Assembly (NCBI GenBank): GCA_964508755.1
Contig: CAZDUZ010000001.1
Span: forward strand, 15,110-79,109
Origin: an uncultured Candidatus Saccharibacteria bacterium
Lineage (GTDB): Bacteria > Patescibacteriota > Dojkabacteria > SC72 > JAFGCJ01
DNA length: 64,000 nucleotides
Direction: 5' to 3'
The position numbers and the translations under genes are program-made. Position 1 is the stretch's first letter. Every line of letters starts with the position of its first letter. Positions 15,003 to 29,696 of the stretch are shown one piece after another. The notes under the pieces are model-generated. The model was not told the DNA's origin, ran no database searches, and saw only the letters and a list, made by a program, of their open reading frames with translations.

Positions 15003-15686
15003 ATGAATGTGATGCAACATATTGGTAAAAATAAGAAGGTTATGATCCTGATTACGATTGGACTTTGCATGATTCTCGTAAGCGGAGTAGGAATGTATGT
15101 ATTGCGAGACAGTAAAGACAATACTGAATTGACGAATTCTTGGATTAATAGCGAAATCAATATGGTGGAAATCGAGGATGTATCTGGAGATTCGACTTCC
15201 GAAGTGACCAATACCTGTACTGGTCATTGGATTGATGTTTCTGGAAGTGTCGTAAATTCAGGTATTTATTGTCTCGAATCGACAAAAACAATTGCAGATG
15301 CGCTTGATAAAGCGGGAGGTCTTCGCGAAGAAGCTTGCCTTCAGTGGATCGAAAGAAGTCTTAACCGTGCAGAATTGATAACACCTTCAAAGAAACTATA
15401 CATACCCTCAAAAAGTGATAGTGAATGTCTGGAACTGAATATTATATCTACTAATGAAAGTTTGACTTCGCCTGCATCTACTTCCAATAAAGGTATCTGC
15501 TCAAATGGTTTAATAAATATTAACAGTGCTGATGCAACGCTGCTGGATACTTTACCGAATGTCGGACCCTCCCTCGCAGGAAAAATCATCGATGCACGAC
15601 CATATAAGTCACTCAATGATTTAAAAAACATTGGGGGTATTGGAGAAGCAACGTATGGAAAAATTGCTCCTTTGATTTGCCTGTAG
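15003..15686 (+). CDS. comEA: ComEA-like DNA receptor (TM anchor, SLBB-like region, C-terminal tandem helix-hairpin-helix)
   Basis: C-terminus ININSADATLLDTLPNVGPSLAGKIIDARPYKSLNDLKNIGGIGEATYGKI is the ComEA HhH DNA-binding signature. Confidence 0.8.
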   Translation: MNVMQHIGKNKKVMILITIGLCMILVSGVGMYVLRDSKDNTELTNSWINSEINMVEIEDVSGDSTSEVTNTCTGHWIDVSGSVVNSGIYCLESTKTIADALDKAGGLREEACLQWIERSLNRAELITPSKKLYIPSKSDSECLELNIISTNESLTSPASTSNKGICSNGLININSADATLLDTLPNVGPSLAGKIIDARPYKSLNDLKNIGGIGEATYGKIAPLICL

Positions 15687-17227
15687 AGGTGTCTGATGTA
15701 TCAAGTCTTAAATTTATAGATATTCCCCCAATTGTGTTATTTTCGCTTGCTGTTGGTGTTGCCTCGGCATTTGCACGGCCTTATTTTGTGGCTATTCTTC
15801 TCGTTGTTGTCACTCTTTTGTGCATAGTTCTCAAAATGAAGCTGTGGGGGGCTGTGGGAGGGGTTGCGTGCATCTTACTTCGTATGTTGCTCGTAAGTTC
15901 ATATGATATTTCTGATGAACATATATCTCACCACAATGGGAAGTACGGATGCTTTCTGGGATATGTAGGTAGGGAAATAGTGGCAAAAGAATCGTCGGTA
16001 AGAGCTATGGTCGAAGTCAACTACCTCTGTACTCCTGGAAGCAATAAAGTTGACGGGGAAGATTGTGTATCCGCGGCAGGAAAGGTTCTCGTCTGGTTTC
16101 CAAGATATGCCACTATTCGCTATGGAGAATTATGGCATTTTTGCGGTGTTCTGGAGGAGCCTCCGCCAGAAGTAAACGGATTTCCATATGCACAGTATCT
16201 AGAAGAAAAAAACGTGTTTTCGTTGATGTATCGATGTACCGCGGAAAATTATTCAAACCGAAGAGGGAATGCTGTAGATCTTCTTTTCTGGGATATCGGC
16301 GATTTTCTTGGAAACCGTATTGAGCAGAGGCTTCCTGAACCTCACGCATCCCTCATGTCTGGCATGCTTTTTGGTTTTAGATCGGATCAATTTCCTGATT
16401 TTTCGCAGAACCTACAGCGGACAGGAGTCACTCATGTCATCGCAGCTTCTGGTTTTAATGTTTCAATTGTTATGACTTTTATTAATGCACTAACGTCATT
16501 TCTTCCAAGGAAGTCGCGGGTGGCGGTATCCATCGTGAGTGCATGGGCATTCTCTTTGATTGCGGGAGGTAGTATTCCGGTTATTCGTGCTGCATTAATG
16601 TCAACGTACTCTTCGGTTGGTTCGTTAGTTGGATTTACTCCGTCAGCTCGTGTCTCTCTTATGTTTACCGGAGCATTACTCCTATTGGTGAGCCCGGATT
16701 ATATGAGCGATATCAGTTTCCAGCTTTCTTATGCTTCAACTGCAGGGCTTTTATACATACTTCCCGTACTTGAGAGTTTACTGAATAAGTGGTGGAGAAA
16801 TGTTTTTGAAAACGGTTTAGTAACAATTGCAGCAATGATAGCAACAACACCAATAAGTCTGTATCACTTCGGTACATTTTCACTTGTGTCTCTACCAGCG
16901 AATATGCTGATACTTCCTCTTGTTACGCCTTCAATGATCGCGGGAGCAGTCATTTGTGTGATTCCAGGCGGTATGAAAGGCGTTCTTGGTCTAATTTCTT
17001 TGGTGTCCTGGGTGCCTCTCGATATATTTGAGAAGGTTGTAAATTGGCTTTCTGGAGTCGATAACGCGATGGTTGAGGTAGGAAGTCCATCATTTATTAT
17101 GGTCTTGTTGTTCTACTGTGGCGTGGGGTTGTTTCTATTGTGGGTGGATAAGTGGAAGAAGTCTACTTCCTCAATATTTCCAGGAGGTAATTATGCTGAG
17201 TTGCTCGTTGGAAGGGCTTGTTTGTGA
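15677..17227 (+). CDS. comEC: ComEC/Rec2 competence channel, membrane (N-terminal and competence-domain) part
   Basis: Polytopic membrane protein with ComEC-like topology. Followed in another frame by the MBL domain that normally forms the ComEC C-terminus. Confidence 0.65.
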   Translation: MPVEVSDVSSLKFIDIPPIVLFSLAVGVASAFARPYFVAILLVVVTLLCIVLKMKLWGAVGGVACILLRMLLVSSYDISDEHISHHNGKYGCFLGYVGREIVAKESSVRAMVEVNYLCTPGSNKVDGEDCVSAAGKVLVWFPRYATIRYGELWHFCGVLEEPPPEVNGFPYAQYLEEKNVFSLMYRCTAENYSNRRGNAVDLLFWDIGDFLGNRIEQRLPEPHASLMSGMLFGFRSDQFPDFSQNLQRTGVTHVIAASGFNVSIVMTFINALTSFLPRKSRVAVSIVSAWAFSLIAGGSIPVIRAALMSTYSSVGSLVGFTPSARVSLMFTGALLLLVSPDYMSDISFQLSYASTAGLLYILPVLESLLNKWWRNVFENGLVTIAAMIATTPISLYHFGTFSLVSLPANMLILPLVTPSMIAGAVICVIPGGMKGVLGLISLVSWVPLDIFEKVVNWLSGVDNAMVEVGSPSFIMVLLFYCGVGLFLLWVDKWKKSTSSIFPGGNYAELLVGRACL

Positions 17228-18129
17228 GAATCAATTGGTTGAAATCTGTGTTATATGGTTCGGGGCTTCTGATTTGGGTTCTTATTTATCAGACGCCTTT
17301 GATTGTTTCGGGCGCAAAGGTTTCATTCCTTGATGTAGGGCAGGGAGATTCTATACTTATTCGAAGTGGTAAAGGTCAAACGGTTCTTATTGATGGAGGA
17401 CCAGATGTATCGGTAATAACAGAACTTGGAACCGTTCTCCCTGTATGGGAAAGAGAGATCGATATTGTTGTGTTAACTCACGCGCATGATGATCACTTGT
17501 TGGGACTATTCGACGTGCTGAAGCGTTTTTCAGTAAAAGTTGTTATTGTAAGAGAAAAGACGTGCGATAGCAAAGTATGTCATGAATTGCTAATGTTGTG
17601 TAAAGAGCTTGAAATCAAAATCTTAGATCTTGATTCCCTTGAACCTCCGTATCAGATAGTGTTGGATGATCTGTCTCTTTCCTTTTGGTGGTCTAAGAAT
17701 GAAACACTACTCGATAATATAAATAACAGTTCAGTCGTGACTGTTCTTTTTCATGAATCGGGGCGATTTTCTGCGATACTGACAGGAGACTTAGAAGAAG
17801 GCGCTGAATATGAATTAATTAACGCATCTTCATTTTGGTATCAAATTGTTGCTACACATGTCACTCGAAGTTCTTCAAGCTTATTTACTGTGCTGAAAGC
17901 AGGTCATCATTGTTCACGTACCGCTAGTTCTGATGATTTTCTTCGTACGACAAAGCCTCTGTATGTTTTATGCAGTTTGGGAAAGGATAACCGTTTTGGT
18001 CATCCTCACGAAGAGACAATTGAAAGACTTCGAAATACCGAAAGTACTGTATTACGGACTGATCTTGATGGACGGGTAACTTTTTATATAGAAAACGGTA
18101 GGGTTGAAAGGGAGAGATTGGGCAGGTAG
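17218..18129 (+). CDS. comEC: ComEC C-terminal metallo-beta-lactamase domain, encoded as a separate or frameshifted ORF
   Basis: VSFLDVGQGDSILI ... VVLTHAHDDHLLGL is the HxHxDH MBL motif. It overlaps the previous ORF by 10 nt in a different frame. Its only start is TTG 17218 with no correctly spaced SD. Confidence 0.6.
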   Translation: MFVRINWLKSVLYGSGLLIWVLIYQTPLIVSGAKVSFLDVGQGDSILIRSGKGQTVLIDGGPDVSVITELGTVLPVWEREIDIVVLTHAHDDHLLGLFDVLKRFSVKVVIVREKTCDSKVCHELLMLCKELEIKILDLDSLEPPYQIVLDDLSLSFWWSKNETLLDNINNSSVVTVLFHESGRFSAILTGDLEEGAEYELINASSFWYQIVATHVTRSSSSLFTVLKAGHHCSRTASSDDFLRTTKPLYVLCSLGKDNRFGHPHEETIERLRNTESTVLRTDLDGRVTFYIENGRVERERLGR

Positions 18130-18288
18130 GGGGTGAAACTGCAATATCGATAGAATTTCTTTGTACTATTATTACGTTACATTCCCTTCCTATGGTAAAA
18201 TAGCGCGTCGTACGAAAATATGCACTGGCTGTACTGTGAAAGGGTAGTTTGCTTGAGTTTTGGCTTACCTATTGCAAGCTCTTCGTAT

Positions 18289-18361
18289 GCACCTGTAGCT
18301 CAGTGGATAGAGCAACTGCCTTCTAAGCAGTAGGTCGTCGGTTCGAATCCGACCGGGTGCG
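18289..18361 (+). tRNA. tRNA-Arg (anticodon TCT)
   Basis: Cloverleaf: acceptor GCACCTG/CGGGTGC, anticodon stem ACTGC/GCAGT, loop CTTCTAA, T-loop TTCGAAT. Confidence 0.8.
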
Positions 18362-18424
18362 TATGTAAAAAAGGCCTGCTGAATACGGAGTATGTATTGT
18401 TCGTGAGATGCTCAAGTTGCATGT

Positions 18425-18497
18425 GCATCCATAGCTCAACGGATAGAGCACTGGTTTGCGGAACCAGAGGTTAGAGGTTCGAATCCTCTTGGATGCG
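18425..18497 (+). tRNA. tRNA-Arg (anticodon GCG)
   Basis: Close overall resemblance to E. coli tRNA-Arg(ACG), but the anticodon loop is TTGCGGA (stem CTGGT/ACCAG). The ACG isoacceptor is replaced by GCG. Confidence 0.7.
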
Positions 18498-18547
18498 TTT
18501 TTTGATAAACAGTTTCTATCAGAATATTAACGGAGAATGTTGTATTA

Positions 18548-18621
<74 letters not shown>

Positions 18622-18684
18622 TATAATACATTTAGTTTGTGTCGCTTCGTTCATTTTGTTATACTTTTCTTTAGAATAAAAATA

Positions 18685-18940
18685 GATAACGAGTAGAGAA
18701 GTAACTTTCGAATGCTGATTCAGCAACCGGGGATGTTGGAAGCCCGGCAGCTGCGGGAGTGAACGCACTGCTTGTTTGTTTACTAATTTGGATAACACCT
18801 GAAATTGAGTGTGTTATCACAAGAGTGTGTCGTCTGGATTCTTTTTACCATTCAGATGGCAAATTCGGGTGGTACCGCGGGAAGAAGTAGAAAGCTCCCG
18901 TCCCGTTGTCAAATTGTGGCGATGGGGCGGGAGCTTTTTG
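18685..18940 (+). promoter_or_regulatory. T-box riboswitch leader (Arg-specific; specifier CGC) with terminator, upstream of argS
   Basis: AAATTCGGGTGGTACCGCGG at 18861-18880 matches the T-box consensus AATTAGGGTGGTACCGCGG at 18 of 19 positions. AGAGA (K-turn) motif at 18694. Candidate specifier loop GTGAA-CGC-A at 18759-18767. Terminator AGCTCCCGTCCC...GGGGCGGGAGCT plus T-run at 18885-18939. Confidence 0.7.
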
Positions 18941-19005
18941 TATTGATATTTAAAAACTCTCATTTCTTAAACGGCCATATCACTTTAAATTAATGCGCGA
19001 TTGTA

Positions 19006-21612
19006 ATGAAATTCAAGATTAGTCCTGAGTTATTAAGTAAGTATCCGACTGTCTGTGAGTACATAGTTGTTGCACGTGAAGTGAACAACGAGATTGCCGG
19101 TAAGTCTATTGTGGATAGAATGTCTGTTGTGACGCATGAGATAAAGGAAAAAGGTAAGGAGTTGTTGAATAATGAACGGTATTCGCGATGGGAGCGTGTC
19201 TATGAAGAGATGGCTCGTACTGCTTCTTTGAAACCCTCTGATTTCCACGCGTCTCATGTAGCTTTGACAAAACGTGCTTTTTCTGGAAAAGGGCTACCTA
19301 ATATTAATCCTCTTGTCAATTTTTATAACATGTACTCTCTTAAATATGGAGTTCCCTTTGGTGGGGAGGATCTTTCCACTGTATACGGAGATCTTATTCT
19401 TACTGTATCTAAGGGTGGTGACCTTTATAAGGGTATTGGAGAAAGCATTGTCGAAAAGACAAACGCAGGAGAGGTGACTTGGAAAGATGATTACTCAGTA
19501 ACCTGTAGACTGTGGAATTGGAGGCAAAGTGACCGGACGAAAATTACACGAAACAGCAAGGATATTTATTTCATTATTGATGGATTTACAGACCTTCCTG
19601 ATGTCGAGTATGAGAAATTAGTCACTGATTTTTGCCATGAAGTCCAAACGGTATTTGGTGCAAAAGTTGAGTACGGGAAGATCTCCGCGGAATCACCTGA
19701 GTTTGAAGTGAATTATGTTACAAAAAGTGTTTCTGGTATCGATGCAGAGACAGAAATGTCTTCCAAAAGTGCGTCAGGAAAAGCTAAGAATAAAAACACT
19801 GATAAAACAAAGAAAATTCTACAAAGAAAGGCTGCAATGCTGGGATTAAAAGATGGGAGTCATCTTTCAGAGAGAGTCACAGCCATTGTAGATGAAATTA
19901 TTGGGGAACATAATGGTGGTGGATCATCCACCCTGTCATTGTCGCAAAACTCTCCGTTTGGTGATTTTTCAACGACTCTCGCACTGAAGCGTGCATCTGT
20001 ATTGAAAAAATCTCCACAAGAAATTGCTCAGGAAATGGTACAAAAACTGGTATCAGATCCAAAAGGACAGTCGCTTTTTTCGAGTGTAAGTGCGGCACCG
20101 AATGGATTCATTAATCTTACCTTGTTAGATTCAGTACTTGTTGATGAGTTGGTTTCTGCATACAGAAAAAAAGATAGCTTTGGCAACTCTGAAGTAGGGG
20201 AAAACCGGACAATTCTAATTGAAAGTCCTTCCATTAATCCAAATGCCGCCGCGCATATCGGCCATCTTTTAAATCTTTTTATCGGTAGGGCGTTGGGAAG
20301 GTTATTTACGAAGGTTGGATTTGATGTCAAGGTCGATAACCTCATTAATGATCGTGGGATTAAGATTTGTATGGCAATGTGGGGGGTAGCTAATCTCTCA
20401 GAGTCTAGTAATCCTACTGAGGCTGGTTTAAAGCCAGATCAATTTGTCGGGTTATCGTATGTGAAGGCAAAACAGCTTTATAATGAGGATTCTTCAGTGA
20501 AAGAAGAGATTCAGCAGATGCTTCGGGATTGGGAGGAAGGCAAACCTGAGGTGATGGAACTTTGGAAAAAGGTCGTCGGATGGGCCTATGAAGGACATAG
20601 ACTGACATTTGAAAGACTGGATGAGGTAGAGGGTCATCTTTGGCTTGAGAGCGAAATATACAAAGGCGGGAAAGATGTGATTCAGTCATATCTCGGTAAA
20701 GGAGTAATAGAAAAACTACCCGATGGCGCGGTTATTGGACGTTTAGAAGAAAAATATGGAATCCCTGATGTAATTCTTCTGAGGGCCGATGGGACAAGTT
20801 TGTATGAAACGCAGGATATCTACTTGACGATGTTGAAGGTGAAGAAATTCAATCCCTGGAAGGCTATATGGGTTGTCGGTAATGAGCAGATTGCACATTT
20901 TCAGAAGCTTTTCGCACTATTTGAAGCACTCGAAATACTGAACGTGGATAATTTGTATCATATGGGATACGGAATTGTTGTTGATAAAAAGGGAATCAAG
21001 ATAGGGAAAAATGCAGCCGATGCCACCGCAGATACCGTTCTCGATCAGATGCGAGACATGGCGTTGTCGATTATGAAAGAGCGAAAAATTAAAAGAACGT
21101 TGGAAGATGAAGGGGATATTGCTGAAGCTGTGGGACAGGGAGCCCTCAGGTATGCGTTTCTTTCAAAAGATCCCTTTCTTGGCACGGTGTACGATCCTGA
21201 GTCTGCTCTTTCATTTACTGGTAGAAGCGGGCCATATATTATGTATGCCTATACAAGAGCAAAAAACGTGCTAGGAAAGGTATATAAAGATACTGCTCAC
21301 GATGAGGGTAAAGAGGTAGACTCTCTCTTGAGTGAAGATATTTCTTTATCACCTGAAGAGAAATCGCTTGCTCTTTCTATACTGCAGTACCCGGAGATCA
21401 TTCTTTCTGCTGCTAATGCGTATGCTCCAAATGTTGTTGCAGAGTACTTGTACAAACTTGCAAGACAATTCAGCAATTTCTACGAAAAGATGCCTATTGC
21501 TTCGGCAGAAGGAAACGAACGCCATCTGAGAATTCTTCTTACATCTCTTACGAGTACGATTCTCAAGGATGGTTTATCAATCCTAGGAATAAGAACACTT
21601 GAGAATATGTAA
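19006..21612 (+). CDS. argS: Arginyl-tRNA synthetase with an N-terminal B3/4 (PheT-like) domain fusion (868 aa)
   Basis: aa ~1-230 (ISPELLSKYPTVCEYIVVAREVNNE ... ) resemble the B3/4 domain of COG3382/PheT beta. aa ~300-868 contain the ArgRS N-domain, the class I HIGH motif (NAAAHIGHLLN) and a DALR-like anticodon-binding region (GALRYAFLS), ending ...LENM. Confidence 0.8.
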   Translation: MKFKISPELLSKYPTVCEYIVVAREVNNEIAGKSIVDRMSVVTHEIKEKGKELLNNERYSRWERVYEEMARTASLKPSDFHASHVALTKRAFSGKGLPNINPLVNFYNMYSLKYGVPFGGEDLSTVYGDLILTVSKGGDLYKGIGESIVEKTNAGEVTWKDDYSVTCRLWNWRQSDRTKITRNSKDIYFIIDGFTDLPDVEYEKLVTDFCHEVQTVFGAKVEYGKISAESPEFEVNYVTKSVSGIDAETEMSSKSASGKAKNKNTDKTKKILQRKAAMLGLKDGSHLSERVTAIVDEIIGEHNGGGSSTLSLSQNSPFGDFSTTLALKRASVLKKSPQEIAQEMVQKLVSDPKGQSLFSSVSAAPNGFINLTLLDSVLVDELVSAYRKKDSFGNSEVGENRTILIESPSINPNAAAHIGHLLNLFIGRALGRLFTKVGFDVKVDNLINDRGIKICMAMWGVANLSESSNPTEAGLKPDQFVGLSYVKAKQLYNEDSSVKEEIQQMLRDWEEGKPEVMELWKKVVGWAYEGHRLTFERLDEVEGHLWLESEIYKGGKDVIQSYLGKGVIEKLPDGAVIGRLEEKYGIPDVILLRADGTSLYETQDIYLTMLKVKKFNPWKAIWVVGNEQIAHFQKLFALFEALEILNVDNLYHMGYGIVVDKKGIKIGKNAADATADTVLDQMRDMALSIMKERKIKRTLEDEGDIAEAVGQGALRYAFLSKDPFLGTVYDPESALSFTGRSGPYIMYAYTRAKNVLGKVYKDTAHDEGKEVDSLLSEDISLSPEEKSLALSILQYPEIILSAANAYAPNVVAEYLYKLARQFSNFYEKMPIASAEGNERHLRILLTSLTSTILKDGLSILGIRTLENM

Positions 21613-29481: not shown

Positions 29482-29555
29482 GCACCTGTAGCTCAAAAGG
29501 ACAGAGCAGCGCACTCCTAACGCGCAGGTTGCAGGTTCGATTCCTGCCAGGTGCG
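29482..29555 (+). tRNA. tRNA-Arg (anticodon CCT)
   Basis: Acceptor identical to the TCT isoacceptor (GCACCTG/CAGGTGC). Anticodon loop CTCCTAA, as in E. coli argW. Stem GCGCA/CGCGC has one A-C mismatch at 31-39. Confidence 0.65.
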
Positions 29556-29621
29556 TATGAAAGCTTTATTGTCGTCATGGGAAACATCTCTTACTAACCA
29601 ATGGTTACGATAGAACCATGA

Positions 29622-29696
29622 GCTCCCGTAGTTCAATCGGATAGAACGTCGGTTTCCGAAACCGAAGGCTTACAGGTTCGAGTCCTGTCGGGAGCG
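29622..29696 (+). tRNA. tRNA-Arg (anticodon CCG)
   Basis: Acceptor GCTCCCG/CGGGAGC, D-stem GTTC/GAAC, anticodon stem TCGGT/ACCGA, loop TTCCGAA, T-loop TTCGAGT. Confidence 0.75.

What the first reader, a model, noticed from the sequence alone, without database searches (positions are those of the whole stretch)
18685..21612. Arg-specific T-box riboswitch upstream of a B3/4-domain-ArgRS fusion
The leader carries an 18-of-19 match to the T-box antiterminator consensus (AAATTCGGGTGGTACCGCGG) plus a downstream terminator. A candidate specifier loop reads GUGAA-CGC-A, and CGC is exactly the codon read by the unusual tRNA-Arg(GCG) encoded ~250 bp upstream. Arg-specific T-boxes are uncommon. The regulated gene is also atypical: ArgRS carries a ~230-aa N-terminal B3/4 domain, the fold that edits mischarged tRNA in PheRS beta. 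A B3/4-ArgRS fusion may be a proofreading or tRNA-handling module, for example against Arg analogues such as canavanine, ornithine or citrulline.
Basis: partly seen in the sequence, partly recalled or inferred. Interest (0 to 1): 0.75.

Follow-up and report, generated by a model that had tools for sequence, protein, structure and literature searches.

The report
T-box-controlled ArgRS with fused CtdA editing domain
In an uncultured Dojkabacteria (CPR) genome, a tRNA-sensing T-box switch specific for arginine controls an arginyl-tRNA synthetase that carries a built-in copy of the recently discovered canavanyl-tRNA deacylase CtdA; this looks like the first ArgRS with its own proofreading domain, though the activity is untested.

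Summary
Both halves of the observation are real.

**T-box (18685..18945).** It is a complete transcription-attenuating T-box leader. RF00230 scores 62.2 bits, below Rfam's gathering score of 93, but E = 4e-11 for the whole window. It has a stem I with an S-turn specifier loop presenting CGC followed by A. It also has a 7-nt UGGUACC antiterminator bulge and an overlapping 20-bp terminator with a U-run. Eight further distinct leaders lie upstream of homologous fused argS genes. Seven of them again present CGC, and their helices covary.

**The fused gene (19006..21612).** It is a bona fide ArgRS (TIGR00456 above cut-off). Its first ~240 aa are not just "a B3/4 fold". They are a full-length homologue of CtdA, the canavanyl-tRNA(Arg) deacylase:
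- PDB 9f7e, E = 4e-25
- Foldseek target-normalised TM-score 0.83 over 229 of 231 columns
- all five mutationally tested pocket residues conserved

**How common and how new.** The fusion occurs in dozens of 50%-identity clusters of CPR-like proteins. None of the three CtdA papers I read mentions it. They call CtdA standalone or single-domain.

**Verdict.** The T-box is a new member of a known kind. The fusion is a new variant of a known kind, a likely cis-editing ArgRS. Deacylase activity and substrate are inferred, not shown.

The parts
18288..18362 (+). tRNA-Arg(UCU) gene. First of a conserved three-gene tRNA-Arg cluster upstream of argS. G73 discriminator, no encoded CCA.
   Evidence: ARAGORN, Rfam tRNA 75 bits, sequence. 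The same cluster sits upstream of argS in L002, L010, L092, L094, L095 and L097.
18424..18498 (+). tRNA-Arg(GCG) gene. Its anticodon is the exact Watson-Crick complement of the CGC specifier, making it the presumed T-box ligand. G73 discriminator.
18548..18621 (+). tRNA-Arg(UCG) gene.
18672..18677 (+). Putative -10 hexamer TAGAAT of the leader's own promoter. This is inferred: the consensus scan found no full sigma-70 site.
   Evidence: Sequence. No promoter was called. In the other leaders a TATAAT or TAGAAT hexamer, preceded by TG in most, lies just upstream of the leader.
18685..18908 (+). T-box leader as aligned by RF00230 (stem I, stem II region, stem III, antiterminator).
   Evidence: 62.2 bits, model 1-219, E = 3.2e-13 / 4.1e-11.
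18688..18776 (+). Stem I. It comprises a 9-bp base helix without a K-turn, a specifier internal loop (5' AGAAGUAA, 3' UGAACGCA), a 6-bp helix, an AGCAA bulge, a 5-bp distal helix and an 11-nt distal loop GAUGUUGGAAG (18732..18742).
   Evidence: CM alignment, fold. The distal helix covaries in five leaders, and AGCAA is invariant.
18764..18766 (+). Specifier codon CGC (Arg), preceded by GAA and followed by purine A18767.
   Evidence: Specifier columns of RF00230. The CM alignment gives CGC at the same position in L001 and L013. CGC also sits in the terminal loop of the short leaders L021, L026, L029 and L033.
18866..18905 (+). Antiterminator. A1 is CGGG/CCCG. The 7-nt bulge UGGUACC is at 18870..18876. 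A2 is GCGGGA/UCCCGU. UGGU would pair with the tRNA 3' end GCCA, with a U.G wobble at the discriminator.
   Evidence: Constrained folds and pair tables.
18891..18942 (+). Intrinsic terminator: a 20-bp stem followed by TTTTT. Its 5' arm contains the 3' strands of the antiterminator.
19006..19725 (+). CtdA-like B3/4 deacylase domain (aa 1-240) of the fusion protein. Pocket residues are N108, G119, C167, Q174 and I190.
   Evidence: Pfam B3_4. PDB 9f7e E = 4.3e-25 and 9mkl E = 3.4e-23. Foldseek target-normalised TM-score 0.83 over 229 columns. Residue conservation.
19726..19920 (+). Lys-rich linker (aa ~241-305). It is partly a predicted helix of low confidence. Some homologues carry a tRNA_bind (PF01588) domain in this position.
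   Evidence: pLDDT below 50 at aa 255-264 and 302-305. Domain order in P0004 and P0014.
19921..21612 (+). Arginyl-tRNA synthetase body (aa ~306-868): Add1 N-domain, Rossmann catalytic domain with HIGH (AHIGH, aa 416-420), DALR anticodon-binding domain, and the stop codon.
   Evidence: Pfam. TIGR00456 at 367.8 bits against a cut-off of 261.65. Foldseek matches to ArgRS structures with target-normalised TM-score 0.8-0.89.

Best explanation
The locus is an arginine-specific, transcription-attenuating T-box leader. It drives a gene for an arginyl-tRNA synthetase whose N-terminus is a complete CtdA-type aminoacyl-tRNA deacylase domain.

Proposed mechanism:
1. Transcription starts just downstream of the tRNA-Arg cluster. 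This is inferred.
2. Stem I presents CGC to the anticodon of tRNA-Arg(GCG). The structure is shown; the pairing is inferred.
3. If the tRNA is uncharged, its 3' GCCA pairs with UGGU in the 7-nt bulge and stabilises the antiterminator, so RNA polymerase reads into argS. If the tRNA is charged, the far more stable terminator forms. The mutually exclusive structures are shown; tRNA dependence is inferred from the T-box family.
4. The product charges tRNA-Arg.
5. The tethered CtdA-like domain hydrolyses tRNA-Arg mischarged with a near-cognate analogue. Canavanine is the only substrate documented for this family. Hydrolysis could occur in cis or right after release. This step is inferred from homology and the conserved pocket.
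6. Editing regenerates uncharged tRNA-Arg, so analogue stress would also induce the gene through the T-box. This is speculative.
For: T-box:
- Full-length RF00230 hit, E = 4.1e-11 for the whole window.
- The core motif is unique, with 0.01 expected by chance.
- Terminator and antiterminator overlap. The leader folds far better than shuffles, z = -7.3.
- Eight further distinct leaders lie upstream of homologous fused argS genes: L001, L013, L021, L026, L029, L033, L093, L094. All have the UGGNACC bulge and a terminator with a U-run.
- CGC is at the specifier in seven of those eight. L094 is unclear.
- Compensatory changes occur in the stem I distal helix and in A1/A2.
- L093 and L094 have UGGC, which is Watson-Crick to the G73 found in every tRNA-Arg seen.
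- TBDB reports Arg T-boxes with a preference for 3'-C specifiers.

Protein:
- Pfam B3_4 plus three ArgRS domains. The TIGR00456 equivalog scores above its cut-off.
- The best PDB sequence matches are CtdA 9f7e and 9mkl.
- The AF2 model has pLDDT 87.6. Its N-domain superposes on the whole of CtdA: target-normalised TM-score 0.83, rmsd 2.8 A.
- The residues that PMC12449066 shows to be needed for activity or specificity are N105, G116, C166, Q173 and I189. They correspond to N108, G119, C167, Q174 and I190 here.
- In 22 fused homologues the first four are invariant or at least 90% conserved. I190 is more variable.
- The fusion occurs in about 30 90%-identity clusters and in many of the ~47 long proteins among the best 150 representatives.
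Against: - The T-box score is below Rfam's gathering threshold, and the stem I K-turn is absent.
- UGGU faces G73, giving only a wobble pair.
- The T-box is patchy. The closest relatives (L090, L091, L092, L002, L010, L095) have none.
- No experiment supports deacylase activity of the fused domain.
- Canavanine is a legume product, and nothing shows that these uncultured bacteria meet it.
- Some close relatives have an unfused ArgRS in the same synteny, so the domain is dispensable.
- The ~65-aa linker is modelled with low confidence. The geometry for CCA-end shuttling in cis is therefore unknown.
Confidence: 0.78

Rival explanations
1. The N-terminal domain is an active deacylase, but its natural substrate is not canavanyl-tRNA(Arg). 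It could be another Arg look-alike charged by ArgRS, such as homoarginine, another guanidino or oxa analogue, or ornithine/citrulline. It could also hydrolyse Arg-tRNA(Arg) itself as a regulatory activity.
For: - The source environments are metagenomes such as activated sludge, with no obvious link to legumes.
- PMC12449066 itself notes that CtdA occurs in organisms unlikely to meet canavanine, may have other roles, and hydrolyses Arg-tRNA weakly at high concentration.
- Related B3/4 domains fused to TyrRS and LysRS must have other substrates.
Against: All five tested pocket positions are identical to those of the two characterised canavanine-specific enzymes. Domains fused to TyrRS or LysRS differ at those positions: C to T, Q to E/L, GGED to GAHD.
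Confidence: 0.25
2. The B3/4 domain is a non-catalytic appendage. It would help bind tRNA-Arg or serve another scaffolding role, as appended RNA-binding domains do in other synthetases.
For: - Some homologues also insert a tRNA_bind (PF01588) domain next to it.
- The linker is Lys-rich.
- Close relatives manage without the domain.
Against: - The residues whose mutation inactivates CtdA (N105, G116, Q173) and the specificity residue C166 are invariant or nearly so across fused proteins that are only 29-62% identical overall.
- The whole CtdA fold is retained.
Confidence: 0.1
3. The T-box-like leader is a decaying relic or responds to a different tRNA, with the specifier read in another register (AAC, ACG or GCA). 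In that case argS here would be effectively constitutive or controlled otherwise.
For: - The score is below the gathering threshold and there is no K-turn.
- The closest relatives lack the element.
- CGC is a rare codon in neighbouring ORFs, 2 of 83 Arg codons.
Against: - Every helix is intact, and the terminator is perfect over 20 bp.
- CGC recurs at the equivalent position in 7 of 8 other distinct leaders in front of argS homologues only 29-54% identical. The neighbouring triplets are not conserved.
- Helices covary.
- TBDB reports a preference for 3'-C specifiers in Arg T-boxes.
Confidence: 0.07

Closest known systems
CtdA, canavanyl-tRNA(Arg) deacylase (Pseudomonas canavaninivorans, PDB 9f7e; Salmonella enterica, PDB 9mkl; clade CtdA-1 of PMC12449066)
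   Same: - Same B3/4 fold over the whole ~230-aa protein: target-normalised TM-score 0.83, rmsd 2.8 A.
- Clear sequence homology, E = 4e-25.
- Identical residues at N105, G116, C166, Q173 and I189.
- Same client tRNA, implied by the fusion partner.
   Different: - CtdA is described as a standalone, single-domain trans-editing factor. Here it is the N-terminal domain of ArgRS itself.
- Many ctdA genes are controlled by guanidine-I/IV riboswitches. This gene is controlled by an Arg T-box.
- The reported distribution is Actinobacteria, Firmicutes, Bacteroidetes and Proteobacteria, not CPR.
- Activity has not been tested here.
T-box leader, RF00230 (class I, transcriptional; for example Arg-specific T-boxes catalogued in TBDB)
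   Same: - Stem I with an S-turn specifier loop, a codon followed by a purine, and a distal helix and loop.
- Stem III.
- Conserved T-box sequence with a 7-nt UGGNACC bulge.
- Competing intrinsic terminator.
- The specifier matches the amino acid of the regulated synthetase.
   Different: - Below Rfam's gathering score (62 against 93 bits).
- No K-turn at the base of stem I.
- AGCAA in place of the consensus AGAGA bulge.
- Host is a CPR/Patescibacteria bacterium. I found no paper linking T-boxes with that group.
- Related leaders have stem I reduced to a hairpin with the specifier in the terminal loop, yet they keep a terminator.
Canonical bacterial arginyl-tRNA synthetase (for example E. coli 5yym, N. 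gonorrhoeae 6ao8)
   Same: Add1 N-domain, HIGH catalytic core and DALR domain. Target-normalised TM-score up to 0.89, and TIGR00456 above its cut-off.
   Different: - A canonical ArgRS of ~570-600 aa carries no B3/4 domain (target lengths). That ArgRS has no editing domain is established knowledge, not tested here. This protein has an extra ~300 aa: the CtdA domain plus a linker.
- The KMSKS-equivalent loop in this subclade reads K-I-G-K-N instead of K-M-S-S-R.
B3/4 editing domain of PheRS beta subunit
   Same: Same Pfam family (PF03483), and the shared catalytic Asn noted in PMC12449066.
   Different: - No PheRS chain is found by sequence at E <= 1, and none is among the top 50 structural matches.
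- No other PheT domain (B1, B5, FDX-ACB) is present in this protein.
- The PheRS pocket residues differ in CtdA, and CtdA cannot replace PheRS editing.

Membership tests
T-box leader (RF00230) | Covariance-model score at or above Rfam's gathering threshold | tested here: not met
   62.2 bits against 93. The match is nevertheless full length, with E = 4.1e-11 for the whole window.
T-box leader (RF00230) | Conserved T-box sequence forming an antiterminator with a 7-nt bulge 5'-UGGNACC-3' | tested here: met
   GGGUGGUACCGCG at 18867..18879 is unique in the window. The A1/A2 helices flank the bulge and covary across 9 leaders.
T-box leader (RF00230) | Mutually exclusive intrinsic terminator overlapping the 3' strand of the antiterminator | tested here: met
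   A 20-bp stem at 18891..18937 plus a T-run. The same arrangement occurs in all related leaders.
T-box leader (RF00230) | Stem I specifier loop with an S-turn (AGUA/GAA) presenting a codon followed by a purine, matching the regulated gene's amino acid | tested here: met
   AGUA on the 5' side and GAA-CGC-A on the 3' side. The CM puts CGC in the specifier columns, and the gene is argS. CGC recurs in 7 of 8 other leaders.
T-box leader (RF00230) | K-turn (GA motif) at the base of stem I | tested here: not met
   The K-turn columns are deleted in the CM alignment. The base is an uninterrupted 9-bp helix.
T-box leader (RF00230) | Stem I distal platform (AG bulge plus distal loop) that docks the tRNA elbow | tested here: inconclusive
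   A bulge AGCAA (invariant in 5 leaders) and an 11-nt loop G...[C/U]UG..AG on a covarying 5-bp helix are present. The sequences differ from the consensus, and T-loop geometry cannot be tested here.
T-box leader (RF00230) | Variable base N of UGGN complementary to the tRNA discriminator | tested here: inconclusive
   In the window N = U faces G73, a wobble pair. L093 and L094 have N = C, which is Watson-Crick to G73.
T-box leader (RF00230) | Readthrough induced by uncharged cognate tRNA | not testable with these tools
   Needs in vitro transcription or reporter assays.
CtdA canavanyl-tRNA(Arg) deacylase (clade CtdA-1) | B3/4 fold and sequence homology to characterised CtdA over the full length | tested here: met
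   Pfam B3_4 at 69.6 bits. phmmer E = 4.3e-25 and 3.4e-23. Foldseek aligns 229 of 231 columns with target-normalised TM-score 0.83.
CtdA canavanyl-tRNA(Arg) deacylase (clade CtdA-1) | Pocket residues shown by mutagenesis to matter (N105, G116, C166, Q173, I189 of S. enterica CtdA) | tested here: met
   The window has N108, G119, C167, Q174 and I190, identical to both solved CtdAs. The first four are invariant or at least 90% conserved in 22 fused homologues. The residue roles come from PMC12449066.
CtdA canavanyl-tRNA(Arg) deacylase (clade CtdA-1) | Free-standing single-domain protein acting in trans | tested here: not met
   The domain is aa 1-240 of an 868-aa ArgRS in one uninterrupted ORF. 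This architecture is conserved in many clusters.
CtdA canavanyl-tRNA(Arg) deacylase (clade CtdA-1) | Selective hydrolysis of canavanyl-tRNA(Arg) | not testable with these tools
   Needs deacylation assays.
Arginyl-tRNA synthetase (class Ia) | Equivalog-level profile match, Add1/catalytic/DALR domain order, HIGH motif, ArgRS fold | tested here: met
   TIGR00456 at 367.8 bits against 261.65. Pfam domains. AHIGH is invariant. Target-normalised TM-score 0.8-0.89 to solved ArgRS.
PheRS beta subunit (source of the B3/4 name) | B3/4 embedded among the B1, B2, B5 and B6-8 domains of PheT, with PheRS-type pocket residues | tested here: not met
   No other PheT domain is present in this protein. No PheRS chain was found at E <= 1. 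The pocket follows CtdA rather than PheRS.

The most novel reading that the evidence does not exclude
Free-standing-type B3/4 (CtdA-family) deacylase domains may be a modular proofreading cassette. Uncultured small-genome lineages appear to have fused it repeatedly to synthetases regarded as lacking editing domains: ArgRS (this locus), TyrRS, and both class I and class II LysRS. Pocket residues appear tuned to each partner. In the ArgRS case, control is rewired from guanidine sensing to a T-box. Editing-generated uncharged tRNA-Arg would then feed back on expression of the editor-synthetase.
Probability: 0.4. Interest if true: 0.8.

Novelty: new variant of a known kind. Interest (0 to 1): 0.62.

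Why it matters
ArgRS is regarded as a synthetase without a proofreading domain (established knowledge, not tested here). Protection against the arginine mimic canavanine was only recently traced to CtdA, which is described as a stand-alone factor.

A natural, widely conserved CtdA-ArgRS fusion matters for four reasons:
- It is independent "Rosetta-stone" evidence that CtdA-family proteins work with ArgRS on tRNA-Arg.
- It would be the first candidate cis-editing ArgRS.
- It raises the question of which Arg analogue threatens symbiotic, amino-acid-scavenging CPR bacteria far from legumes.
- It offers a compact single-polypeptide system for studying how a class I synthetase hands its product to a B3/4 editing site.

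The T-box extends tRNA-sensing attenuation to Patescibacteria. It also shows that Rfam's threshold misses these leaders. That bears on riboswitch surveys and on how reduced genomes regulate translation factors.

Tried and rejected
**Rfam default threshold.** The default (gathering) scan returned only tRNAs. I had to rescan by E-value.

**Alignment-based covariation.** MAFFT alignments of the leaders (A2, A3) mis-register the 3' strands of stem I. I therefore did not use the count of structure pairs, fold_alignment or a custom covariance model on them. Instead I anchored helices on the invariant loop and bulge in a script. That script's automatic choice of A1/A2 for L029 and L094 is suboptimal, and the constrained MFE folds are better for those two.

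**Ambiguous specifiers.** The L094 specifier could not be placed confidently; it may be CGU-A. In L093 CGC is followed by U, not a purine.

**Loci without a T-box.** No T-box core was found upstream of the fused argS in L002, L005, L010-L012, L014-L018, L027, L030, L032, L034, L044, L051, L059, L090-L092, L095 or L096. Some of these have too little upstream sequence.

**PheRS-beta origin.** I considered that the domain is a PheRS-beta fragment and rejected it.

**Assembly or frameshift artefact.** I considered that the fusion is an artefact and rejected it. The ORF is uninterrupted, and the architecture recurs in dozens of independent assemblies.

**Literature.** Searches for T-box with CPR, Patescibacteria or Saccharibacteria, and for an ArgRS-B3/4 fusion, returned nothing relevant. 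Vitreschak 2008 (PMC2271356) is not held.

**Model coordinates.** I could not inspect them to measure the distance between the CtdA pocket and the ArgRS active site.


Full report
**1. What is in the sequence**

The interval lies in a run of + strand genes:
- a ComEC-like ORF (15677..17227)
- an MBL-fold ORF (17218..18129)
- three tRNA-Arg genes with anticodons UCU, GCG and UCG (18288..18621)
- a 385-nt non-coding leader
- an 868-aa ORF (19006..21612)
- a YkuD-like ORF
- tRNA-Pro(CGG)

The same gene order recurs in MAGs labelled Candidatus Dojkabacteria (L001, L002), and their ArgRS proteins are 51-54% identical to this one. The window is therefore from a Dojkabacteria-like member of the CPR/Patescibacteria. 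This assignment is an inference from named relatives, because the window's own protein carries no name.

**2. The T-box**

*Detection.* Rfam at its curated threshold reports only tRNAs. Scanned by E-value, RF00230 aligns end to end (model 1-219) to 18685..18908 at 62.2 bits. E = 3.2e-13 for the 501-nt search and 4.1e-11 for the whole window on both strands against all 4227 families. The gathering score is 93, so a standard annotation would miss it. The 13-nt core GGGTGGTACCGCG occurs once, against 0.01 expected. The leader folds far better than shuffles, z = -7.3.

*Stem I (18688..18776).* Reading the covariance-model alignment and the folds, stem I has these parts:
- a 9-bp base helix
- an internal loop with AGUA on the 5' side and GAA-CGC-A on the 3' side, which is the S-turn and specifier arrangement
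- a 6-bp helix
- a bulge AGCAA
- a 5-bp distal helix
- an 11-nt distal loop

The model places CGC (18764..18766) in the specifier columns, followed by a purine. The K-turn columns are deleted.

*Antiterminator and terminator.* After two hairpins comes the antiterminator: A1 CGGG/CCCG, the bulge UGGUACC at 18870..18876, and A2 GCGGGA/UCCCGU. Its 3' strands form the 5' arm of a 20-bp terminator (18891..18937) followed by TTTTT. This is the classic transcriptional T-box layout.

*The likely ligand.* The CGC specifier is the exact complement of the anticodon of tRNA-Arg(GCG), encoded about 190 nt upstream of the leader. All five tRNA-Arg genes of the window have G73 and no encoded CCA. UGGU would therefore pair with GCCA through a terminal U.G wobble.

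**3. Comparative support for the T-box**

I collected fused-argS loci from genomes and metagenomes. Eight further distinct loci carry a T-box core upstream:

| Locus | RF00230 score | Bulge |
|---|---|---|
| L001 | 67.4 bits | UGGU |
| L013 | 54.3 bits | UGGU |
| L093 | 36.1 bits | UGGC |
| L026 | 30.1 bits | UGGU |
| L033 (and L028) | 29.3 and 27.1 bits | UGGU |
| L094 | motif only | UGGC |
| L021 (and near-identical L019, L020, L022) | motif only | UGGU |
| L029 | motif only | UGGU |

- All of them have the 7-nt bulge flanked by two helices and a competing terminator with a U-run.
- The covariance model puts CGC followed by G in the specifier columns of L001 and L013.
- L021, L026, L029 and L033 have a reduced stem I: a short hairpin whose terminal loop reads (A)GUCGCG(A).
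- L093 has GAA-U-CGC-U. L094 is ambiguous.
- Anchored on the invariant loop and bulge, the stem I distal helix and A1/A2 show compensatory changes. Examples are G-C to A-U and G-C to C-G.
- L093 and L094 carry UGGC, the Watson-Crick partner of G73.

Together these results make an Arg-specific, functional T-box by far the best reading. The element is patchy, however. The window's closest relatives (L090, L091, L092, L002, L010, L095) join the tRNA cluster or the upstream gene to argS with no T-box.

*Comparison with what is published.* Arg T-boxes, and a preference for 3'-C specifiers in six-codon families, are documented in TBDB. CGC is rare in neighbouring ORFs, 2 of 83 Arg codons. I found no paper linking T-boxes with CPR, Patescibacteria or Saccharibacteria in the held library.

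**4. The protein**

*Domains.* Pfam finds B3_4 (aa 80-196), Arg_tRNA_synt_N (308-373), tRNA-synt_1d (394-722) and DALR_1 (745-868). The NCBIfam argS equivalog TIGR00456 scores 367.8 against a cut-off of 261.65.

*Identity of the N-terminal domain.* The decisive result is the PDB sequence search with aa 1-270. The two best hits are CtdA canavanyl-tRNA deacylase from P. canavaninivorans (9f7e, E = 4.3e-25) and 9mkl (E = 3.4e-23). The 9mkl entry is described as canavanyl-tRNAArg deacylase (CtdA). I take it to be the S. enterica enzyme, because its residue numbering fits that paper's with an offset of 2. No PheRS chain is found at E <= 1.

*Structure.* An AlphaFold2 model built with 22 homologues has mean pLDDT 87.6 and pTM 0.69. 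In Foldseek the C-terminal 560 aa match solved ArgRS structures with target-normalised TM-score up to 0.89. The N-terminal domain matches the whole of CtdA: 229 of 231 columns, TM-score 0.83, rmsd 2.8 A, E = 9.5e-14. No PheRS appears in the top 50.

*Pocket residues.* PMC12449066 shows by mutagenesis that N105, G116 and Q173 are needed for activity, that C166 modulates activity and specificity, and that I189 shapes the pocket. These align with N108, G119, C167, Q174 and I190 here, identical to both solved CtdAs. The first four are invariant or at least 90% conserved among 22 fused proteins that are otherwise 29-62% identical. I190 varies more (I, V, Y or T among the fused ArgRS examples). Conservation of this kind argues for retained catalysis.

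*Linker.* Between the two parts lies a Lys-rich, partly helical linker of low confidence (aa ~241-305).

**5. Distribution and variants**

- The word-indexed search found about 30 90%-identity clusters with B3_4 plus ArgRS domains. They are named Dojkabacteria, Patescibacteria or unnamed.
- An exhaustive phmmer of the N-domain against 1.84 billion representatives gave 1861 hits at E <= 1e-3. About 47 of the best 150 are 600 aa or longer.
- Of ten long proteins checked, six are B3_4-ArgRS.
- Some variants insert a tRNA_bind (PF01588) domain between CtdA and ArgRS. One has two B3_4 stretches.
- Some Dojkabacteria have an unfused 608-aa ArgRS in the same synteny, so the domain has been gained or lost within the group.

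**6. Mechanism**

*Shown:*
- the RNA structures and their mutual exclusivity
- the specifier identity and its conservation
- the domain identities, the fold and the pocket conservation

*Inferred from the families:*
- Uncharged tRNA-Arg(GCG) binds the specifier and the bulge, stabilises the antiterminator and allows readthrough.
- The enzyme charges tRNA-Arg.
- The tethered CtdA domain removes a near-cognate amino acid.

Canavanine is the only substrate documented for this family, and the pocket here is identical at every tested position. Whether hydrolysis occurs by CCA-end shuttling in cis or on the released product is unknown.

*Speculative:* editing regenerates uncharged tRNA-Arg, so analogue stress would induce the gene through the T-box. 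Stand-alone ctdA genes are often induced by guanidine riboswitches instead (PMC11477304). No guanidine riboswitch is detectable here.

**7. Comparison with what is known, and novelty**

The T-box is a divergent new member of a known family in a phylum where I found none reported.

The protein is a new variant. The three CtdA papers describe CtdA as standalone or single-domain and never use the words "fusion" or "fused". Their phylogenetic survey lists Actinobacteria, Firmicutes, Bacteroidetes and Proteobacteria. My literature searches found no description of an ArgRS carrying a B3/4 or CtdA domain. The library is open-access only, and database domain-architecture listings may already show the fusion, so priority cannot be asserted. 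That ArgRS lacks an editing domain is established knowledge rather than a result obtained here.

**8. Verdict**

Confidence is high (about 0.9) for the T-box identity and Arg specificity, and very high for CtdA homology. It is moderate (about 0.6-0.7) for actual canavanyl or analogue-tRNA(Arg) deacylase activity.

Interest is 0.62. The result would surprise synthetase specialists and is directly testable, but each component belongs to a known kind.

Noticed in passing
P0115, P0156 (and L099 1501-3576), P0136, P0138: The same free-standing-type B3/4 (CtdA-like) domain is fused to other synthetases. It is N-terminal to TyrRS (P0115, P0156), C-terminal to a class II LysRS (P0136, named lysyl-tRNA synthetase class 2 by JGI) and C-terminal to a class I LysRS (P0138). 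Pocket columns differ with the partner. TyrRS fusions have T instead of C167, P instead of I190 and GAHD instead of GGED. LysRS fusions have E instead of Q174.
   Followed up: partly
window 18288-18621 and 29482-29696: The window encodes five tRNA-Arg genes (UCU, GCG, UCG, CCU, CCG) and no ACG gene. This set can read all six Arg codons without inosine, so the organism may lack TadA. All five have G73 and none encodes CCA. The UCU-GCG-UCG trio next to argS is conserved in Dojkabacteria loci. I could not check the rest of the genome.
   Followed up: partly
L021 2295-2330, L026 2319-2337, L029 2320-2350, L033 150-182: Four related leaders have stem I reduced to a short hairpin with the specifier in the terminal loop, (A)GUCGCG(A). 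L029 and L021 have a K-turn-like UGA...GGAGC context. All four still end in an intrinsic terminator. From memory, this resembles the ultrashort stem I of actinobacterial ileS T-boxes, but those act on translation. Rfam scores are 30 bits or lower, or there is no hit.
   Followed up: partly
L001 2120-3000: In this Dojkabacteria MAG the Arg T-box and its terminator lie upstream of a tRNA-Arg(UCU) gene. A ~390-nt GC-rich, hairpin-rich spacer follows before argS. The T-box may therefore gate transcription of a tRNA gene as well as the synthetase.
   Followed up: no
window 20959-21000 (aa 652-665 of the ORF): The KMSKS-equivalent loop of ArgRS reads K-I-G-K-N in the window protein and its nine closest relatives (P0001-P0010). 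More distant fused ArgRS proteins have the usual K-[ILM]-S-S-R. This is a clade-specific change in a catalytic loop.
   Followed up: no
P0004, P0012, P0014, P0016 (about 980-1000 aa); P0021 (1124 aa): Some fused ArgRS proteins carry an extra tRNA_bind (PF01588, Trbp111/EMAPII-like) domain between the CtdA domain and the ArgRS body. This places a tRNA_bind domain next to a B3/4 domain, two domains that also occur together in PheRS beta. P0021 has two B3_4 stretches.
   Followed up: partly
L033 304-546 and L028 274-516: An 80-aa ORF sits between the T-box terminator and the fused argS, and its stop overlaps the argS start codon (ATGA). It may be a co-regulated small protein of unknown function.
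   Followed up: no
L094 1098-1246: tRNA-Arg(GCG) and tRNA-Arg(UCG) are separated by only 2 nt. The junction gives a sub-threshold Rfam YrlA (Y RNA-like) hit at 37 bits against a gathering score of 69, which is most likely an artefact of two adjacent tRNAs.
   Followed up: no
L097 3001-4827 and L098 999-2852: One assembly (GCA_041890195.1) holds two unfused ArgRS genes (608 and 617 aa, 50-53% identical to the window's). Both sit in the same MBL...YkuD synteny, and L097 also has the three tRNA-Arg genes but no T-box. The CtdA domain is therefore dispensable or was lost in some Dojkabacteria.
   Followed up: partly
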